This document shows positions 36,735-61,308 of a DNA stretch of 64,000 nt, piece by piece. Positions within the stretch are counted from its first letter, which is position 1; each line of letters begins with the position of its first letter. Below the pieces are notes generated by a model that saw only the letters and a list, made by a program, of their open reading frames with translations, was not told where the DNA came from and did no database searches. This DNA is from Escherichia coli (lineage in GTDB: Bacteria; Pseudomonadota; Gammaproteobacteria; Enterobacterales; Enterobacteriaceae), in assembly GCF_016026235.1 (NCBI RefSeq), contig NZ_CP065613.1. One strand, 5' to 3'. The position numbers and the translations under genes are program-made.

Positions 36735-38226
<1,492 letters not shown>

Positions 38227-56121: not shown

Positions 56122-56149
56122 GCCCGGTTGAAGTGCAACCGGGCTATTT
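56122..56149 (+). terminator. Rho-independent terminator after glpD
   Basis: Perfect 9-bp stem GCCCGGTTG / CAACCGGGC with a 5-nt loop, followed by TATTT. Confidence 0.7.
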
Positions 56150-56165
56150 GGATTCCTTAGACTAT

Positions 56166-56771
56166 TCATTGTAAATAATTGAATAACGGCCCCTGAGCTA
56201 AAATCGCCAAACTTAAGCACGTTACCCAATCGCCCCACTTCTTCCTCTGGTTTCTATTTTTTCTGCACCAATGGCAATAATATCCCAATGCAAAACCAAG
56301 CTGTGCACTAATCGGGCCGACAAAATCAGTCCAAGGCTGCGGCCAAAAAGGGGAAAAATTCAGGGGAGGCCAGACAAACGTCAGAAAGAAATTTCGGATA
56401 TTTTCCAGCAACGCTGATTTCTCTGGAGAAATATAAAGAATGAAATTCGAGAGAATTAACCAGAAATAGACCGGCGAAAAGACCAGCCAGCAATGCAGTC
56501 TGTTTTTTAATTCAGGAGGCGTTCTGCGGGAGAATTGCCAACCGATGCCAGCCATTACACTGAAAAAAAGTGCATATTCAACCATTAACTCAAGTTGTAA
56601 TTCCTGAAGAGAAATACGCACAACCAGGAGCGGAAAGGAGAATATTATTTCTGCCAGAAAAGTTAACGTGAATATAAGTACGGCTAAGACAATAACCGTC
56701 GGCCATACCAATAATGGCACGATAACAAAACCGAGAATTACAGGGGGAATATAAAGCCGGAATTTAATCAT
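56166..56771 (-). CDS. hypothetical small polytopic membrane protein (island ORF 4 of 4)
   Basis: 201-aa ORF MIKFRLYIPPVILGFVIVPLLVWPTVIVLAVLIFTL...; about four hydrophobic segments; CHWC motif near the C-terminus; starts 2 nt after the upstream ORF stop; AT-rich codon usage. Confidence 0.6.
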   Translation of the reverse strand: MIKFRLYIPPVILGFVIVPLLVWPTVIVLAVLIFTLTFLAEIIFSFPLLVVRISLQELQLELMVEYALFFSVMAGIGWQFSRRTPPELKNRLHCWLVFSPVYFWLILSNFILYISPEKSALLENIRNFFLTFVWPPLNFSPFWPQPWTDFVGPISAQLGFALGYYCHWCRKNRNQRKKWGDWVTCLSLAILAQGPLFNYLQ

Positions 56772-56773
56772 TT

Positions 56774-57541
56774 TTATTTTCCTGGTGATTCGGATGATGC
56801 GTCATACATCGCGCATAAACACTCATCAATTATCCAGTCATCTTCCCAGACCTGATATTCTGTCATTGGTTCGGGCTGTTTTAGCGGGTTCTCAATCGCT
56901 TGCCGCGCTCTTTCTTTCAGTAAAGGATGATTATTTCTAGCCCAGGCATTGATTTGGGTGGTAATGACGTTATCGATATCGTCCTGGTTATCTCTGATAT
57001 AATCCTCACAATATCTGTTCAATAAACAGGCAAGAGAAACGGTCGACCAAAAGCCGGGAACTGAATTAATGGCATCCAGCAATGGCGCAAGAGCGATATC
57101 GGCACGGAAAAACATTTCCAGCATATACTGTAATTCGACAGCTTCATCGCCGGATACCCAATCAGTCATATACTGGCAGGCAAATCGCTGTAAAATTGCC
57201 CGTTCATCCGCACGCCAGTTTTCTTTGTTGGCAAGGTTGATACGGCGCAGAGAAAAAACTACGTGAATATTGTCAAAATGCCCCTGTGCAACAAATTCCA
57301 GTAAACGCGGCAGAAAATAGCGGACCTCATCGCTATTTTGCGGATCAGGCCCTGGGCTACTATTCCAGGCATTGATTAAGGAATACGGGATCGCTCGTAA
57401 CGATGTACTCCGTAATGCCTTTTGTTCCTGCTGACTCAGGCAATATTCACAACAAACCACAAATTTCTGCGGCACCCGATAACGACGAAAGGTGTGATAA
57501 ATCTGCTCAATTAATGCCTGCATGGCGGGGCTGGGTTGCAT
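56774..57541 (-). CDS. hypothetical soluble protein with cysteine motifs (island ORF 3 of 4)
   Basis: 255-aa ORF MQPSPAMQALIEQIYHTFRRYRVPQKFVVCCEYCLSQQEQ...; N-terminal CC-x2-C and C-terminal ECLC motifs; 2-nt gap to both neighbours; no family recognised. Confidence 0.6.
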   Translation of the reverse strand: MQPSPAMQALIEQIYHTFRRYRVPQKFVVCCEYCLSQQEQKALRSTSLRAIPYSLINAWNSSPGPDPQNSDEVRYFLPRLLEFVAQGHFDNIHVVFSLRRINLANKENWRADERAILQRFACQYMTDWVSGDEAVELQYMLEMFFRADIALAPLLDAINSVPGFWSTVSLACLLNRYCEDYIRDNQDDIDNVITTQINAWARNNHPLLKERARQAIENPLKQPEPMTEYQVWEDDWIIDECLCAMYDASSESPGK

Positions 57542-57543
57542 AG

Positions 57544-58254
57544 TTACCCCCTCGCCCGCTGATCGCGTGTAAACGGTTGATAGACAAAACGAGCATTCGC
57601 CGCGTTCAGGCGAATAAGGGCGCTACGCGAAAGGGAAAAGCTGGGGCGAATGCAACTATTGCAGTCTCGACAGCTTTCCTCTGCGCAATTTTCCACTGAG
57701 TAATGACGCGTGTAGAGTTTCAGTTCGGCCTGCTTATCGCGAAATCCGCGTAAACTGTTATTGTTATGAAATTTCCAGGCATCTTTAAAGACCTGAAAGA
57801 TATAGACATCCTCAATCCAGGAGTCACATTTTTTAAGCGGGCGCTTTGCTATTATCACCCGCTCATCCGGATTTAGCATCGCCGTAAATTGTACGGTGAC
57901 GTCATTTGTCGTGTTCAGGTCACATTGAACATCTGGTACATCACTGATATAGGGGTCAAATCCAAAATCAGCACCACAGGCACAAAGACGGCTAATGGTG
58001 GCGGTATCGAGGGAAAATCCCGGCCATACCTTGCTGGAGGTTAAGCCAATATTTAATGTGACATCATATCGAAGCAATCCCTCAAGACCGTCAGCACCGA
58101 CGAACTTTTCCCCTTCATCCAGGGCCTGGTTAATAAGTTGCTGAACAATGCCTTCATCCCAGTATGCCGATTTGCAGTTGGCAATCGTAATATCCACGCC
58201 TGTGAAGGGATCAGTACCGGCAAGGCTTGCAAATAATGTATTAACTAATTCCAT
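57544..58254 (-). CDS. hypothetical soluble protein with C-terminal C-x4-C-x2-C-x2-C motif (island ORF 2 of 4)
   Basis: 236-aa ORF MELVNTLFASLAGTDPFTGVDITIANCKSAYWDEG... ending ...ENCAEESCRDCNSC...; no family recognised. Confidence 0.6.
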   Translation of the reverse strand: MELVNTLFASLAGTDPFTGVDITIANCKSAYWDEGIVQQLINQALDEGEKFVGADGLEGLLRYDVTLNIGLTSSKVWPGFSLDTATISRLCACGADFGFDPYISDVPDVQCDLNTTNDVTVQFTAMLNPDERVIIAKRPLKKCDSWIEDVYIFQVFKDAWKFHNNNSLRGFRDKQAELKLYTRHYSVENCAEESCRDCNSCIRPSFSLSRSALIRLNAANARFVYQPFTRDQRARG

Positions 58255-58269
58255 TTTTATTATCCAGCT

Positions 58270-59787
58270 TTAAGGTAGCGTCTTATACATCGGGACATAA
58301 CCTACATCTTCCACCAAACTCTGTCCCTGCGGCGTTAAAAACCACTCCAACAATTTTTGTGTCTCTGACGTCGTATTTTCCCGCGTTACCATAAAGGCAT
58401 CGACGATATAGGGATATTTGCCGTTGCGAATGTTTTCGGCAGTCGGTGCAATACCGTTAATCGCTAGCAGTTTTATATTTTTATCGGCGTTCATTTGTGT
58501 TGCGTAATAACGGAAGGTGTAACCTATTGCGTTGTTTGTATTACGGTATTCGGCAACGACTTTAATCATTCCCTCCATCATACTTGCCACTTCTGTTTCC
58601 TGCGGCGAGATCATGCGGACATTTTTCATGACCTGGGATTGCATCACCGTCTGGCTGCCAGAGTCTTCCGGGCGCTGCCAGGTCTGGATCTCCTGATCGT
58701 TACCGCCAACAGTACGCCAGTTGGTAATTGCACCACTGAAAATGTCACGCACCTGTTGTTCAGTCAGGGAATTAACCGGATTATCCGCATTGACGATGAA
58801 AACGAATGCTTCACGGGCAAAGGGGGTGTACAGCAAAGTGACACCAGATTCCTTTGCACGTTTTTTTTGCCCACCGGAAGGTTGCGCCACAAAAATAATA
58901 TCAGCATCGCCCTTAACGATTTTGTTATATGCTTCTGGCGTACGAGAGTTTTCCAGATAATCCCAAACGTGAAAATCCTCTGGTATTACACTTAATGCAT
59001 AAAATGCAGAAGCATAAATTGGGTACGCAGCCGTGGCGCCATCGATTCGCGGCCAGTTTTGCCTAAACTGAATTTGCGGTTTGCCACGCAGTGGCGTCAG
59101 TCGATTATTGAGTTTATCGGGTCGCCAGGCCCAGATATCAATATTTTCGCGTACACCGACACCAGGATTTTGCTGCTTATATAAATGGGCCTGATACCCA
59201 GCGACAATACCAAGTAAGAGAAGTAGAAACAGGAGTAAGTTACGGCAACGTAGTCCGGACGTGCCGGATAAAGGATATCTGGTCGGCCAGGCGTATCCCA
59301 GCGAAAAACTGATATGCGCCCCAACGGGAATAATGACCATCCACCAGTACTCACCACCCACTAATGAGACTAAAAAAACGCCCAACCAGGGAAGCATAAG
59401 GTTTGCCAACCAACCAGCTCCCATCTGGCGAAATTGATAATCTGCCAGATGTAGCGTGATTATCCAGCCAACCAGGGTTAATAGCGCGGGTAAGAGAAAA
59501 AAGCATTGCCGCCAGACGGCTATTTCTCTGTTTTCTGGCGCGCTATCACCGGCCCACACGCGACCAGAGAAAAATATTATTACCGCCCCCAGCGTCAGCA
59601 TAAAGACGTTGAGTAGAAGATAAATTGTTGGCGTGATAAGGATATTACAAACTTCAATAATACCGGTAAGCCCGACACCCAGCATGGCAACAACCGCTGC
59701 CAAAAATTGCGCCAGTATGGGGATGCCGAAAAAAGTCATTATCAGCGAGGTCAAAATCCATTTTCTATTTGGCATCATTCTGTCCAT
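58270..59787 (-). CDS. hypothetical membrane-anchored protein with C-terminal PstS/PBP-like periplasmic domain (island ORF 1 of 4)
   Basis: 505-aa ORF: the N-terminal ~200 aa contains about six hydrophobic helices; the C-terminal region (...ADNPVNSLTEQQVRDIFSGAITNWRTVGGNDQEIQTWQRPEDSGSQ...) resembles the phosphate-binding-protein-like (PstS) fold signature. ATG at 59785-59787 is preceded by AGGAAG. Confidence 0.65.
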   Translation of the reverse strand: MDRMMPNRKWILTSLIMTFFGIPILAQFLAAVVAMLGVGLTGIIEVCNILITPTIYLLLNVFMLTLGAVIIFFSGRVWAGDSAPENREIAVWRQCFFLLPALLTLVGWIITLHLADYQFRQMGAGWLANLMLPWLGVFLVSLVGGEYWWMVIIPVGAHISFSLGYAWPTRYPLSGTSGLRCRNLLLFLLLLLGIVAGYQAHLYKQQNPGVGVRENIDIWAWRPDKLNNRLTPLRGKPQIQFRQNWPRIDGATAAYPIYASAFYALSVIPEDFHVWDYLENSRTPEAYNKIVKGDADIIFVAQPSGGQKKRAKESGVTLLYTPFAREAFVFIVNADNPVNSLTEQQVRDIFSGAITNWRTVGGNDQEIQTWQRPEDSGSQTVMQSQVMKNVRMISPQETEVASMMEGMIKVVAEYRNTNNAIGYTFRYYATQMNADKNIKLLAINGIAPTAENIRNGKYPYIVDAFMVTRENTTSETQKLLEWFLTPQGQSLVEDVGYVPMYKTLP

Positions 59788-59870
59788 TCTTCCTGAATGA
59801 CGGAATTATACTCCCCGAGAACCCTCGCCCCCTCTGGACACTTTTCCGAAATGATGGCGAAAAAAAACGG

Positions 59871-59882: not shown

Positions 59883-61308
59883 TAATGCCAGTCAGTTAAG
59901 CAACTGACTGGCTCTTTTTCGGGGCTGTGGGGTATTTCCAGGGCCTCTCCTTTACCACTCTCGGGAAGGCCCTTCCCCTTCTCGTCGGTAATTTCACAAG
60001 TTGTCCCATACTTGCAAGATCGCGCATCAGCTCCGGTATACGTCCCGGTGAAGCGCCCTGCAATGTCATCAGCATTCTCATCACCATTCCGCATGATTCT
60101 GAGAAACTCAGTTGATTCGGCCAGTAACCTTTCAGATGTTCCGCCATTTTAATCATCTGATATCTCACCAGATTATAAGCCAGTAAGACACCCCACAGCT
60201 CTTGCTCCACAAGCTCCGGCTTTTTACTTCTCAGCGTCAGCCTGCTCAGTTGCATCGTCTGTTTTATCTCCCTGTATCCCAGTTCGATTTCCCAGCGATG
60301 ACTGTACAGATCCGCCATTTCTCCTCCGGGGAAGCGCATGGCGTCCGTCATCGACGTCAGCAGATGGCAGACTTTTCCTTTGCGCGTCACGGTCAGCAGG
60401 CGGGCTGTCACTTCATTTCCCAGTCCCGGCCACTTTTTTCGTGCCTGCGGGCTGGTTTTCAGCTTCACCAGATGATCGCCTTTACCCAGTTTTCTGAGCT
60501 CTTCATATTGCGCTCCCTTTCTGAGAGGTATCATCCAGTGGCGGTGTTCTCCCGCCAGGCTCCAGGCATTTAACAGTCCCAGTGAGTAATAACCTTTATC
60601 CATTAACGTCAGAGTGTTATCGCCGGTTTGTTCTATAAGTTGCTCAGCAAGCTCATTTTCGCTGTTCTTCATCGTGCCGAAGGCTGCAGCCGTCAGCAGA
60701 TGGCTGGTCAGTTCCATCTGGCAGACCATTTTGACCTGCGGGTAGAGCGCCGGGTTCCCGGCATGTGTCTGGCGGGGGAAGGCTGCATCGTTCTCTGGTG
60801 TATCCGGTGTGCGCCAGAACACACCATCGATGGCCAGCAGGGTCAGGCCGCACCAGTGCGGATGCGGCGTGGCGTTATGCCAGAGCTGCGCTGTTTTCGT
60901 GAACACGCGGCGGACAGCCTCACTTCCCAGGCGCTGGCGGGCCTGAATAACGGCACTGGGGGCAACGAAGGGGCGATTGCCCGGCAGCATGATGTCCAGG
61001 CGATTCACAATCTGGTGAAGAGGTTCTTTACGCTCAAGCGCCATGCCAACAATACACCAGACCATCATTTCGAGGGGAAGACGGCGCTTGCGTAGCGTTA
61101 CAGTACCTGATTCGGCAAGGCAACGAGAGATGAGTTCGGGGTCGAGGTAATCCCCCAGAGAAGTCAGTGGGTTACGCAGAGAATCGTAACGGGATACCAG
61201 ATCAAGAGCCTGTCCAATGTGCATAAAAAAATCCGGAAACAAGTGAGCGTTTCCGGATTCTTACACAGCCACTGGATCGGTCAACTGATCCTTAACTGAT
61301 CGGCATTA
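59883..61308 (-). mobile_element. IS4: complete IS4 insertion sequence (1426 bp)
   Basis: Terminal 18-bp imperfect inverted repeats TAATGCCAGTCAGTTAAG (left) and TAATGCCGATCAGTTAAG (right, reverse complement), 16 of 18 matching; one transposase ORF inside; flanked by a perfect 12-bp direct repeat; 1426 bp equals the canonical IS4 length. Confidence 0.95.
59896..61224 (-). CDS. insG: IS4 transposase (DDE)
   Basis: Track ORF 59896..61242 trimmed to [48 protein letters not shown]..., 442 aa, recognised as IS4 transposase InsG. Confidence 0.93.

What the first reader, a model, noticed from the sequence alone, without database searches (positions are those of the whole stretch)
56774..58254. Two adjacent soluble proteins with clustered cysteines and no recognisable family
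The 236-aa ORF ends with C-x4-C-x2-C-x2-C (ENCAEESCRDCNSC) and carries a CAC pair mid-protein. The 255-aa ORF has CC-x2-C near its N-terminus and ECLC near its C-terminus. Such spacing suggests metal or Fe-S binding. Together with the neighbouring membrane proteins this could be a redox or metal-handling pair.
Basis: inference. Interest (0 to 1): 0.5.

Follow-up and report, generated by a model that had tools for sequence, protein, structure and literature searches.

The report
Two cysteine-rich orphan proteins, optional cassette
Two small cytoplasmic E. coli proteins of unknown function sit as an optional, horizontally acquired pair between glpD and glgP; one belongs to a large unnamed family with three near-invariant cysteines and a predicted fold unlike any solved structure, while the other's four-cysteine cluster is a dispensable loop insertion.

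Summary
Both ORFs are real genes under purifying selection (dN/dS 0.14-0.29). They have about three times the local cysteine content and match no model in Pfam, NCBIfam, PHROGs, PADLOC or PDB.

- **The 236-aa protein** is confined to Enterobacteriaceae and is an internal tandem duplication of a ~110-aa alpha/beta domain. Its C-x4-C-x2-C-x2-C cluster is a ~12-residue loop insertion in repeat 2. It is absent or nearly absent in 4 of 19 homologues, and the CAC pair is not conserved. At most it is an optional structural zinc knuckle.
- **The 255-aa protein** belongs to a family of at least 1,289 clusters at 50% identity, with no curated model. C30 and C34 are 98-99% conserved, and a third Cys sits at position 31 or 33. 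This motif is probably a metal site. The C-terminal ECLC occurs only in the enterobacterial subfamily. The AlphaFold model is confident (pLDDT 91), all-alpha, and has no PDB match.

The two genes are not an obligate pair, and the family of the 255-aa protein has no conserved partner. The neighbouring membrane proteins are PstS-like, not redox proteins. The cassette is often deleted, frameshifted or replaced. The best guess is stand-alone, zinc-stabilised binding proteins, possibly immunity-like. Function remains unproven.

The parts
57544..58254 (-). p236: 236-aa soluble protein confined to Enterobacteriaceae, made of two tandem copies of a ~110-aa alpha/beta domain
   Evidence: ORF. Homologues occur only in Escherichia, Shigella, Klebsiella, Salmonella, Pseudocitrobacter and Superficieibacter. 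The internal duplication is supported by hhalign (probability 85%, E 6e-6). The AF2 N-domain has pLDDT about 90 and the C-domain is poor. dN/dS is 0.14-0.18.
57940..58242 (-). p236 repeat 1 (residues 5-105), beta-beta-alpha-beta-alpha-beta core
57562..57906 (-). p236 repeat 2 (residues 117-231), which carries the Cys4 insertion
   Evidence: hhalign self-alignment. PGFSLD...ISRL in repeat 1 aligns with RPSFSLS...IRL in repeat 2.
57652..57687 (-). p236 C-x4-C-x2-C-x2-C cluster (residues 190-201), a ~12-residue loop insertion in repeat 2
   Evidence: Positions. It is an insertion relative to repeat 1. It is present in 15 of 19 homologues with variable spacing, absent in P0073 and P0088, and reduced to one Cys in P0089 and P0092. 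The model is low-confidence here.
57976..57984 (-). p236 CAC (residues 91-93)
   Evidence: Positions. It is not conserved: CTC, CAS, SAC, SDC and SDS occur in homologues.
56774..57541 (-). p255: 255-aa all-alpha protein, member of a large family with no curated model
   Evidence: ORF. The exhaustive profile search found 1,289 clusters at E<=1e-3 and 362 at E<=1e-10. None of 53 members hits a Pfam or NCBIfam model. The AF2 model has pLDDT 91.1, pTM 0.90 and 12 helices. No PDB fold match.
57440..57454 (-). p255 CC-x2-C (residues 30-34), the family's near-invariant tri-cysteine loop
   Evidence: C30 98%, C34 99%, third Cys at position 33 (76%) or 31 (24%) in 116 full-length representatives. It lies in the loop between helices 1 and 2, where pLDDT is 92-94.
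56813..56824 (-). p255 ECLC (residues 240-243), a subfamily-specific Cys pair in the last helix
   Evidence: All 14 close homologues keep at least one of C241 and C243. It is absent from the wider family (1%).
58270..59787 (-). p505: N-terminal multi-pass membrane domain plus a PstS-like solute-binding domain; first gene of the operon
   Evidence: PBP_like_2 E 1.9e-31 and TIGR02136 at 123 bits, below its 206.6-bit cut-off. Five to six hydrophobic segments in residues 15-202. Annotated as PstS family in RefSeq.
56166..56771 (-). p201: membrane protein homologous to the membrane domain of the p505 family; last gene of the operon
   Evidence: BLASTP against p505 paralogues: 26% over 177 aa, and through the Superficieibacter homologue 34% over 168 aa, E 1e-15. 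Its start codon lies 2 nt after the p255 stop.
56122..56144 (.). GC-rich hairpin between the convergent glpD and p201 genes, a likely shared terminator
   Evidence: Terminator scan.

Best explanation
These are two unrelated, horizontally acquired cytoplasmic accessory proteins. They form an optional cassette inside a variable operon at the enterobacterial glgP-glpD hotspot. Their cysteines are best read as structural metal (zinc) ligands, not redox or Fe-S centres.

p255 belongs to a widespread unnamed family. It has an all-alpha fold with no solved counterpart, and a near-invariant tri-cysteine loop (C-x2-CC or C-x-C-x2-C, here CC-x2-C). In the enterobacterial branch a C-terminal Cys (C243 or C241) may complete the site.

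p236 is a tandem duplication of an alpha/beta domain. Its Cys4 cluster is a lineage-specific, dispensable zinc-knuckle-like loop.

Both most likely act by binding a partner macromolecule as stand-alone inhibitor or immunity-like proteins, not as enzymes.

Shown here: the anatomy, the conservation pattern, the family size, the fold predictions and the variability of the locus. Inferred: metal binding, zinc rather than iron, and the binding or immunity role.
For: - **Cysteine conservation.** The p255 tri-Cys is 98-99% conserved across 116 distant homologues. The third Cys shifts between two positions, as expected for a ligand in a flexible loop. The enterobacterial branch always keeps C241 or C243.
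- **The p236 cluster.** It is an insertion relative to the sister repeat, its spacing varies, and it is lost in 4 of 19 homologues.
- **No enzyme signal.** No enzyme or redox family matches either protein.
- **Accessory behaviour.** GC is 45-47% against about 52% in the flanks. The pair is present at >=80% coverage in 2,279 of 5,426 complete E. coli genomes. p236 is deleted in L013. p255 is frameshifted in L012 and L017 and truncated in L018 and L019. O157 Sakai lacks the cassette. dN/dS is relaxed but below 0.3.
- **Paralogy.** Two tandem p255 copies occur in L009, and two p236 copies in L007 and L016.
- **Immunity-like company.** In Klebsiella a YbbD-like lipoprotein gene lies between the two homologues. 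YbbD in K-12 directly follows the Rhs fragment ylbH. One distant p255 relative is flanked by an Imm5 gene (E 3.5e-36) and DUF4288. Others sit in same-strand arrays with DUF1877, GNATs, PIN and ParE modules, glyoxalase, DUF4262 or an ankyrin protein.
- **DUF4279 hint.** Precomputed faint DUF4279 hits exist on some p236 homologues. DUF4279 is described as the immunity family FdL-Imm5 (PMC9424270).
Against: - No toxin gene (Rhs, CdiA or a T6SS effector) lies next to either gene in the window or in roughly 40 related loci. The neighbours of distant p255 relatives are mostly housekeeping genes with no recurring family.
- The DUF4279 hint was not reproduced in my own Pfam scan of 19 family members.
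- Strongly conserved polar residues in p255 (E72, R79, E82, E113, and P78 at 100%) look more like a conserved functional site than like a fast-evolving immunity surface.
- Three Cys alone do not make a canonical Zn(Cys)4 site, and no universal fourth ligand was found.
- I could not inspect model coordinates, so the proximity of C243 to the N-terminal loop is untested.
- The tight translational coupling of all four genes could mean that they work together.
Confidence: 0.4

Rival explanations
1. p236 and p255 are a metal- or Fe-S-binding pair that works with the flanking membrane proteins in redox chemistry or metal handling.
For: Cysteine content is high (3.1-3.8% against 1.09%). The p255 tri-Cys is near-invariant, which could hold a cluster with an open coordination site. 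All four genes are translationally coupled in one operon.
Against: The p236 cluster is dispensable. No Fe-S, thioredoxin, cytochrome or metal-transport family matches any of the four proteins. The membrane partners are PstS-like, that is oxyanion-binding, not redox. The two genes are separable, and p255 relatives have no conserved membrane partner. The locus decays often.
Confidence: 0.1
2. The four genes form one functional membrane-associated module. A periplasmic PstS-like sensor or binding protein (p505) and its membrane-only paralogue (p201) would signal to, or be regulated by, the cytoplasmic proteins p236 and p255. The output could be regulatory or an undescribed phage or competitor defence.
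For: The gene order p505-p236-p255-p201 is conserved at the same locus in Escherichia, Pseudocitrobacter, Klebsiella and Superficieibacter. Intergenic gaps are 2 nt with embedded Shine-Dalgarno sequences. One variant carries an SF1 helicase with DUF2726 inside the cassette, which is typical of defence hotspots. Deleting O-island 133, the O157 version of this locus, lowered type III secretion in a screen (PMC3378721; mapping from PMC4041753, PMC2907692).
Against: The O157 island that gave that phenotype contains no p236 or p255. p236-p255-p201 persists where p505 is replaced by a fimbrial operon. p255 occurs widely without any of the other three. There are no PADLOC hits.
Confidence: 0.25
3. 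p255 is an enzyme whose tri-cysteine loop holds a catalytic metal with an open coordination site. p236 is a degenerate deaminase-like accessory subunit.
Confidence: 0.15

Closest known systems
Orphan or arrayed immunity proteins of polymorphic toxin systems (for example Imm5 PF14423; FdL-Imm5 = DUF4279, PMC9424270)
   Same: They are small, cytoplasmic and stand-alone. They are sporadically distributed, tandemly duplicated and often decayed. They sit in low-GC variable loci. One relative lies next to an Imm5 gene, and a YbbD-like gene lies inside the Klebsiella cassette.
   Different: No adjacent toxin was seen anywhere. There is no significant match to any Imm model. The p255 family has strongly conserved polar residues and an invariant Cys motif, which is unusual for immunity proteins.
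Structural zinc knuckles and zinc ribbons (Cys4 loops)
   Same: p236 residues 190-201 provide four Cys as short C-x2-C-type pairs in a surface loop. As with many accessory zinc loops, the element can be lost without losing the fold.
   Different: There is no match to any zinc-finger family, and metal binding is untested. The loop is predicted with low confidence.
Cytidine/guanine deaminase-like fold (CDA superfamily; tandem active plus pseudo domains as in E. coli CDA or APOBEC3G)
YbbD family (NCBIfam NF007301/PRK09781; Pfam YbbD_head PF26610), the name PGAP gives to some p236 alleles
   Same: Residues 7-49 of p236 match positions 6-48 of NF007301 (E 6e-5).
   Different: NF007301 is a chimera. 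Its positions 1-48 are a p236-type N-terminus and positions 45-177 are the YbbD-like lipoprotein. The p236 family and the YbbD-like protein are unrelated (hhalign probability 0.25%; no tblastn hit to K-12 ybbD). The label is an annotation artefact.
PstS phosphate-binding proteins (relevant to the neighbour p505, not to the two soluble proteins)
   Same: The C-terminal half of p505 matches PBP_like_2 and PstS-family models, and its O157 paralogue matches PstS crystal structures.
   Different: It is fused to a multi-pass membrane domain. It scores below the PstS family cut-off (123 against 206.6 bits). No pstCAB transporter genes are adjacent.

Membership tests
Polymorphic-toxin immunity proteins | Gene lies immediately downstream of, or next to, a cognate toxin gene (Rhs, CdiA, T6SS or T7SS effector) | tested here: not met
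   There is no toxin-like gene in the window island or in about 40 related loci.
Polymorphic-toxin immunity proteins | Significant match to a described immunity family model (Pfam Imm*, SUKH, DUF4279/FdL-Imm5 and others) | tested here: not met
   Pfam finds nothing for p255 and its 53 relatives. p236 relatives carry only precomputed 'faint' DUF4279 hits, which an E<=1 scan of 19 members did not reproduce.
Polymorphic-toxin immunity proteins | Occurs in arrays with other immunity genes | tested here: inconclusive
   One relative is flanked by Imm5. Klebsiella has a YbbD-like gene between the pair. Most other neighbours are unannotated or housekeeping genes.
Polymorphic-toxin immunity proteins | Binds and neutralises a specific toxin | not testable with these tools
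   This needs co-expression or competition experiments.
Fe-S cluster proteins (ferredoxin-type or radical-SAM-type motifs) | Canonical motif (CxxCxxCxxxCP or CxxxCxxC) and a match to an Fe-S family model | tested here: not met
   The spacings are C-x4-C-x2-C-x2-C and CC-x2-C. No Fe-S family scores above noise; NADH_4Fe-4S reaches E 0.088 in 2 of 19 p236 relatives.
Fe-S or zinc metalloproteins in general | Candidate ligand cysteines conserved across homologues | tested here: inconclusive
   Met for p255 C30, C34 and the third Cys (98-99%). Not met for p255 C241/C243 outside Enterobacteriaceae, for the p236 Cys4 cluster (lost in 4 of 19) or for CAC.
Fe-S or zinc metalloproteins in general | Bound metal in the purified protein | not testable with these tools
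   This needs ICP-MS and UV-visible spectroscopy.
Cytidine-deaminase-like superfamily (for p236) | Fold similarity at a significant level | tested here: inconclusive
Cytidine-deaminase-like superfamily (for p236) | H/C-x-E at the start of helix 2 and PCxxC at the start of helix 3 (zinc and catalytic site) | tested here: not met
   The helix starts carry W32-D-E-G and P78-G-F-S-L-D in repeat 1, and D149 and R203-P-S-F in repeat 2, with no Cys or His ligands.
YbbD family (NF007301 / YbbD_head) | Full-length match above the model cut-off, or homology to the YbbD head domain | tested here: not met
   22.6 bits against a 373-bit cut-off, covering 43 residues only. hhalign probability is 0.25%. The model is chimeric.
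Known anti-phage defence systems | Match to a PADLOC model | tested here: not met
   None of the four island proteins hits a PADLOC model.

The most novel reading that the evidence does not exclude
p255 would be the founding E. coli member of a large, phylogenetically broad protein family (at least 1,289 clusters at 50% identity, from Proteobacteria to Deinococcota) with no curated model. The family would have a new all-alpha fold built around a previously undescribed tri-cysteine metal centre with a specific biochemical role. In Enterobacteriaceae this protein, its lineage-specific partner p236 and the membrane-anchored PstS-like proteins would together form a new kind of envelope-linked conflict or signalling module.
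Probability: 0.2. Interest if true: 0.6.

Novelty: new variant of a known kind. Interest (0 to 1): 0.35.

Why it matters
If the tri-cysteine loop of p255 is a real metal site on a new helical scaffold, it defines a family of more than a thousand sequence clusters. That family currently has no Pfam or NCBIfam model, no solved structure and no name. One biochemical characterisation would therefore annotate many genomes.

The work also clears up a misleading public annotation. The label 'YbbD family protein' on p236 comes from a chimeric NCBIfam model.

Finally, it shows that the glgP-glpD interval (O-island 133 in O157) is a cassette-swapping hotspot framed by PstS-like membrane proteins. For the finding as written, the practical message is more modest. 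Clustered cysteines alone were a poor guide: one cluster is ancient and probably essential, and the others are lineage-specific decoration.

Tried and rejected
- **Library scans.** Pfam, NCBIfam, PADLOC and PHROGs scans of all four island proteins found nothing for p236 or p255.
- **PDB searches.** Single-sequence and profile searches found nothing.
- **YbbD lead.** PGAP labels some p236 alleles 'YbbD family'. I rejected this: there is no tblastn similarity to K-12 ybbD, hhalign probability is 0.25%, and the model is chimeric.
- **DUF4279 (FdL-Imm5) lead.** It rests only on faint precomputed hits, which my own scan did not reproduce.
- **Homology between the proteins.** Profile-profile tests of p255 against the neighbouring Imm5 protein and of p236 against p255 showed no relation.
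- **Mobile carriers.** No p255 relatives were found in viral contigs. Neither protein is on plasmids; the one E. coli 'plasmid' hit is a 4.8-Mb record, which is chromosome-sized.
- **Conserved partner for p255.** All-against-all BLAST plus Pfam on about 100 neighbours from about 25 loci found no recurring family.
- **Universal fourth ligand in p255.** Only subgroup-specific His columns turned up.
- **O-island 133 phenotype.** It cannot be transferred to these genes, because the O157 island lacks them.
- **Tool limits.** The AFDB Foldseek library was unavailable. Alignment A7 was too diverse for a pattern scan. Literature searches for yzgL and YbbD_head gave nothing useful.

Full report
**Where the finding lies.** The window is E. 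coli chromosome. The gene order is rtcR, glpR, glpG, glpE, glpD, a four-gene minus-strand island, an IS4 copy, then glgP.

The island reads, in transcription order:
- p505 (58270-59787)
- p236 (57544-58254)
- p255 (56774-57541)
- p201 (56166-56771)

Its GC content is 45-47% against about 52% around it. The gaps between genes are 15, 2 and 2 nt, and Shine-Dalgarno sequences lie inside the upstream genes. The four genes are therefore one translationally coupled operon. A hairpin shared with convergent glpD ends it.

**Checking the observation.** Cysteine content is 3.8% and 3.1%, against 1.09% for the window's 45 long ORFs. Given each protein's own composition, the clustering itself is only mildly unusual (shuffle P about 0.03 each).

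Neither protein has a membrane segment. Neither matches anything in Pfam, NCBIfam, PADLOC, PHROGs or PDB sequences. Comparison of E. coli alleles gives dN/dS of 0.14-0.18 for p236 and 0.18-0.29 for p255. That is purifying selection, but looser than for glpD at 0.02-0.07. The genes are real and the description is accurate.

**p236.** Word-indexed searches found relatives only in Enterobacteriaceae: Escherichia, Shigella, Klebsiella, Salmonella, Pseudocitrobacter and Superficieibacter.

The protein is an internal duplication. Residues 5-105 align with residues 117-231 (hhalign probability 85%, E 6e-6). For example, WPGFSLDTATISRL aligns with IRPSFSLSRSALIRL. The four-Cys cluster is a roughly 12-residue insertion in repeat 2 with no counterpart in repeat 1.

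Across 19 homologues the cluster behaves as follows:
- Its spacing drifts between C-x4-C-x2-C-x2-C, C-x4-C-x2-C-x3-C and C-x3-C-x2-C-x3-C.
- It is completely gone in P0073 and P0088.
- It is reduced to a single Cys in P0089 and P0092.
- The CAC pair varies freely.

**The 'YbbD family' label.** RefSeq calls some p236 alleles 'YbbD family protein'. This is an artefact. NCBIfam NF007301 is a chimera. Its first 48 positions match the N-terminus of the p236 family. Positions 45-177 match a YbbD-like lipoprotein that lies just downstream of the p236 homologue in Klebsiella. The two families are unrelated.

**p255.** The word-indexed search suggested another enterobacterial orphan. The exhaustive profile search changed that picture. 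It found 1,289 clusters at E<=1e-3 and 362 at E<=1e-10, almost all 240-270 aa long. None of 53 diverse members hits a Pfam or NCBIfam model. Named members come from Acinetobacter and a Deinococcus megaplasmid. The rest are metagenomic.

In 116 full-length representatives:
- C30 is present in 98% and C34 in 99%.
- A third Cys sits at position 33 (76%, C-x2-CC) or position 31 (24%, C-x-C-x2-C or CC-x2-C, the window's form).
- The [YH]FLPR motif is nearly universal, and P78 is present in 100%.
- The C-terminal ECLC occurs only in the enterobacterial branch. There, all 14 close homologues keep C241 or C243.
- About 40% of the family instead has co-occurring His residues near columns 92 and 169. 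The window protein lacks both.

**Are the two genes a pair, and do they work with the membrane neighbours?** The order p505-p236-p255-p201 recurs at the same glgP-glpD site in several genera. The parts are nevertheless separable:
- p236 is deleted in L013.
- p505 is replaced by a fimbrial operon in L012 and L014, while the other three genes stay.
- p255 is frameshifted or truncated in L012, L017, L018 and L019.
- Two p255 paralogues stand alone at a different locus in L009.
- Klebsiella has a YbbD-like gene between the pair, plus three tandem p505 paralogues.
- Superficieibacter has a second p236 paralogue and an SF1 helicase with DUF2726.
- O157 Sakai has p505, a PstS-like lipoprotein paralogue and p201, but neither soluble protein.
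- K-12 lacks the cassette: it has only the pseudogene yzgL at this site (my own knowledge, not checked here), and 2,406 of the 5,426 complete E. coli genomes gave no match to the pair.

Only 2,279 of 5,426 complete E. coli genomes carry the pair at 80% coverage or more. Distant p255 relatives never neighbour a p236 relative and share no recurrent neighbour family.

The membrane neighbours are a PstS-like binding domain on a multi-pass anchor and a copy of that anchor alone. Nothing about them suggests redox chemistry.

**What the proteins most likely do.** The behaviour is that of dispensable accessory genes at a cassette-swapping hotspot. They have low GC, patchy presence, frequent decay, tandem paralogy and relaxed constraint.

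Several contexts hint at the immunity-protein world:
- The YbbD-like insert in Klebsiella. YbbD in K-12 directly follows the Rhs fragment ylbH.
- An Imm5 gene and DUF4288 flank one p255 relative.
- Same-strand arrays contain DUF1877, GNATs, PIN and ParE modules, glyoxalase, DUF4262 or an ankyrin protein.
- Some p236 homologues carry faint DUF4279 hits. DUF4279 is described as the immunity family FdL-Imm5 (PMC9424270; see also PMC13304343).

Against that reading, no toxin gene lies next to any of about 40 loci. The DUF4279 hint did not reproduce. The conserved polar residues of p255 look like a fixed functional site.

My best reading, at about 40% confidence, is that these are stand-alone binding or neutralising proteins whose cysteines hold structural zinc. 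The rivals are a single four-gene envelope-linked module (25%), an enzyme with a catalytic metal (15%) and the original redox or metal-handling idea (10%).

**Comparison with what is known, and novelty.** Both proteins are present in thousands of genomes as 'hypothetical protein'. They fail the tested membership criteria for immunity families, Fe-S families, deaminases, YbbD and known defence systems.

The new points from this analysis are:
- the size of the p255 family and its tri-Cys signature;
- its confident predicted fold with no match;
- the tandem-repeat architecture of p236;
- the chimeric origin of the YbbD label.

Without a function I rate this as a new variant of a known kind, namely cysteine-loop metal-binding accessory proteins. 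Interest is moderate (0.35).

Noticed in passing
window 59896-61242 (transposase ORF, minus strand); element spans roughly 59.89-61.3 kb: An IS4-type element (448-aa transposase) is inserted between the island's first gene and glgP, about 100 nt upstream of the p505 start. It is absent from the otherwise collinear strain mip270_04 (L001). It may separate the operon from its native promoter; a TATAAT-like box remains at about 59806-59811.
   Followed up: partly
window 56166-56771 and 58270-59787; L004:2381-6924; L062:6809-9937: p201 is homologous to the N-terminal membrane domain of the p505 family. Klebsiella carries three tandem p505 paralogues. O157 Sakai carries p505 plus a PstS-like lipoprotein paralogue (ECs_4271), which RefSeq labels 'ABC transporter ATP-binding protein' although it matches PstS crystal structures. 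Membrane-anchored PstS-like proteins in tandem, with no pstCAB genes nearby, remain unexplained.
   Followed up: partly
L062 (O157:H7 Sakai NC_002695.2, 4276809-4279937): By gene numbering this locus is O-island 133 of EDL933. A published screen reports reduced type III secretion after its deletion (PMC3378721). The O157 island contains no p236 or p255, so that phenotype concerns the PstS-like genes and p201.
   Followed up: partly
NCBIfam NF007301 (PRK09781); L004:8001-9124: This 'equivalog' model is a chimera of a p236-type N-terminus (positions 1-48) and a YbbD-like lipoprotein (positions 45-177). It was probably seeded on a deletion-fusion gene. It causes PGAP to name some p236 alleles 'YbbD family protein'.
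   Followed up: yes
L020/L021 (Acinetobacter wuhouensis CP033133.1), 4795-9734: A p255-family gene sits inside an rtc RNA-repair operon, between rtcB and rtcA, with DUF7684, DUF6847 and two small unannotated genes. In Enterobacteriaceae the p255 island also lies only five genes from rtcR-rtcB. This may be coincidence or a link to RNA-damage responses.
   Followed up: no
L007:8741-11440 and L016:4564-7260 (Superficieibacter): An 899-aa SF1 helicase (AAA_11/AAA_12) with a C-terminal DUF2726 is inserted between two p236 paralogues at the same glgP-glpD locus. This suggests the site also collects defence-like genes.
   Followed up: no
L012 and L014 (E. coli FDAARGOS_1286 and 23AR0151): In some E. 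coli lineages a chaperone-usher fimbrial operon replaces p505 upstream of p236-p255-p201. In one of them p255 is frameshifted.
   Followed up: partly
L003 (K-12 MG1655, 527949-529130): The K-12 pseudogene ybbD overlaps the end of ylbH, an Rhs C-terminal fragment, in the rhsD locus. That layout is typical of an orphan toxin-immunity pair, and a YbbD-like gene is part of the Klebsiella version of the island studied here.
   Followed up: partly
window 37579-38226 (+): A 215-aa ORF has the highest cysteine content among the window's long ORFs (4.65%). I did not examine it.
   Followed up: no
p255 family alignment: About 40% of distant family members share two co-occurring His motifs, P[ST]HSxE near column 92 and LHF near column 169. 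The E. coli protein lacks both. This may be an alternative set of metal ligands or a subfamily-specific site.
   Followed up: partly
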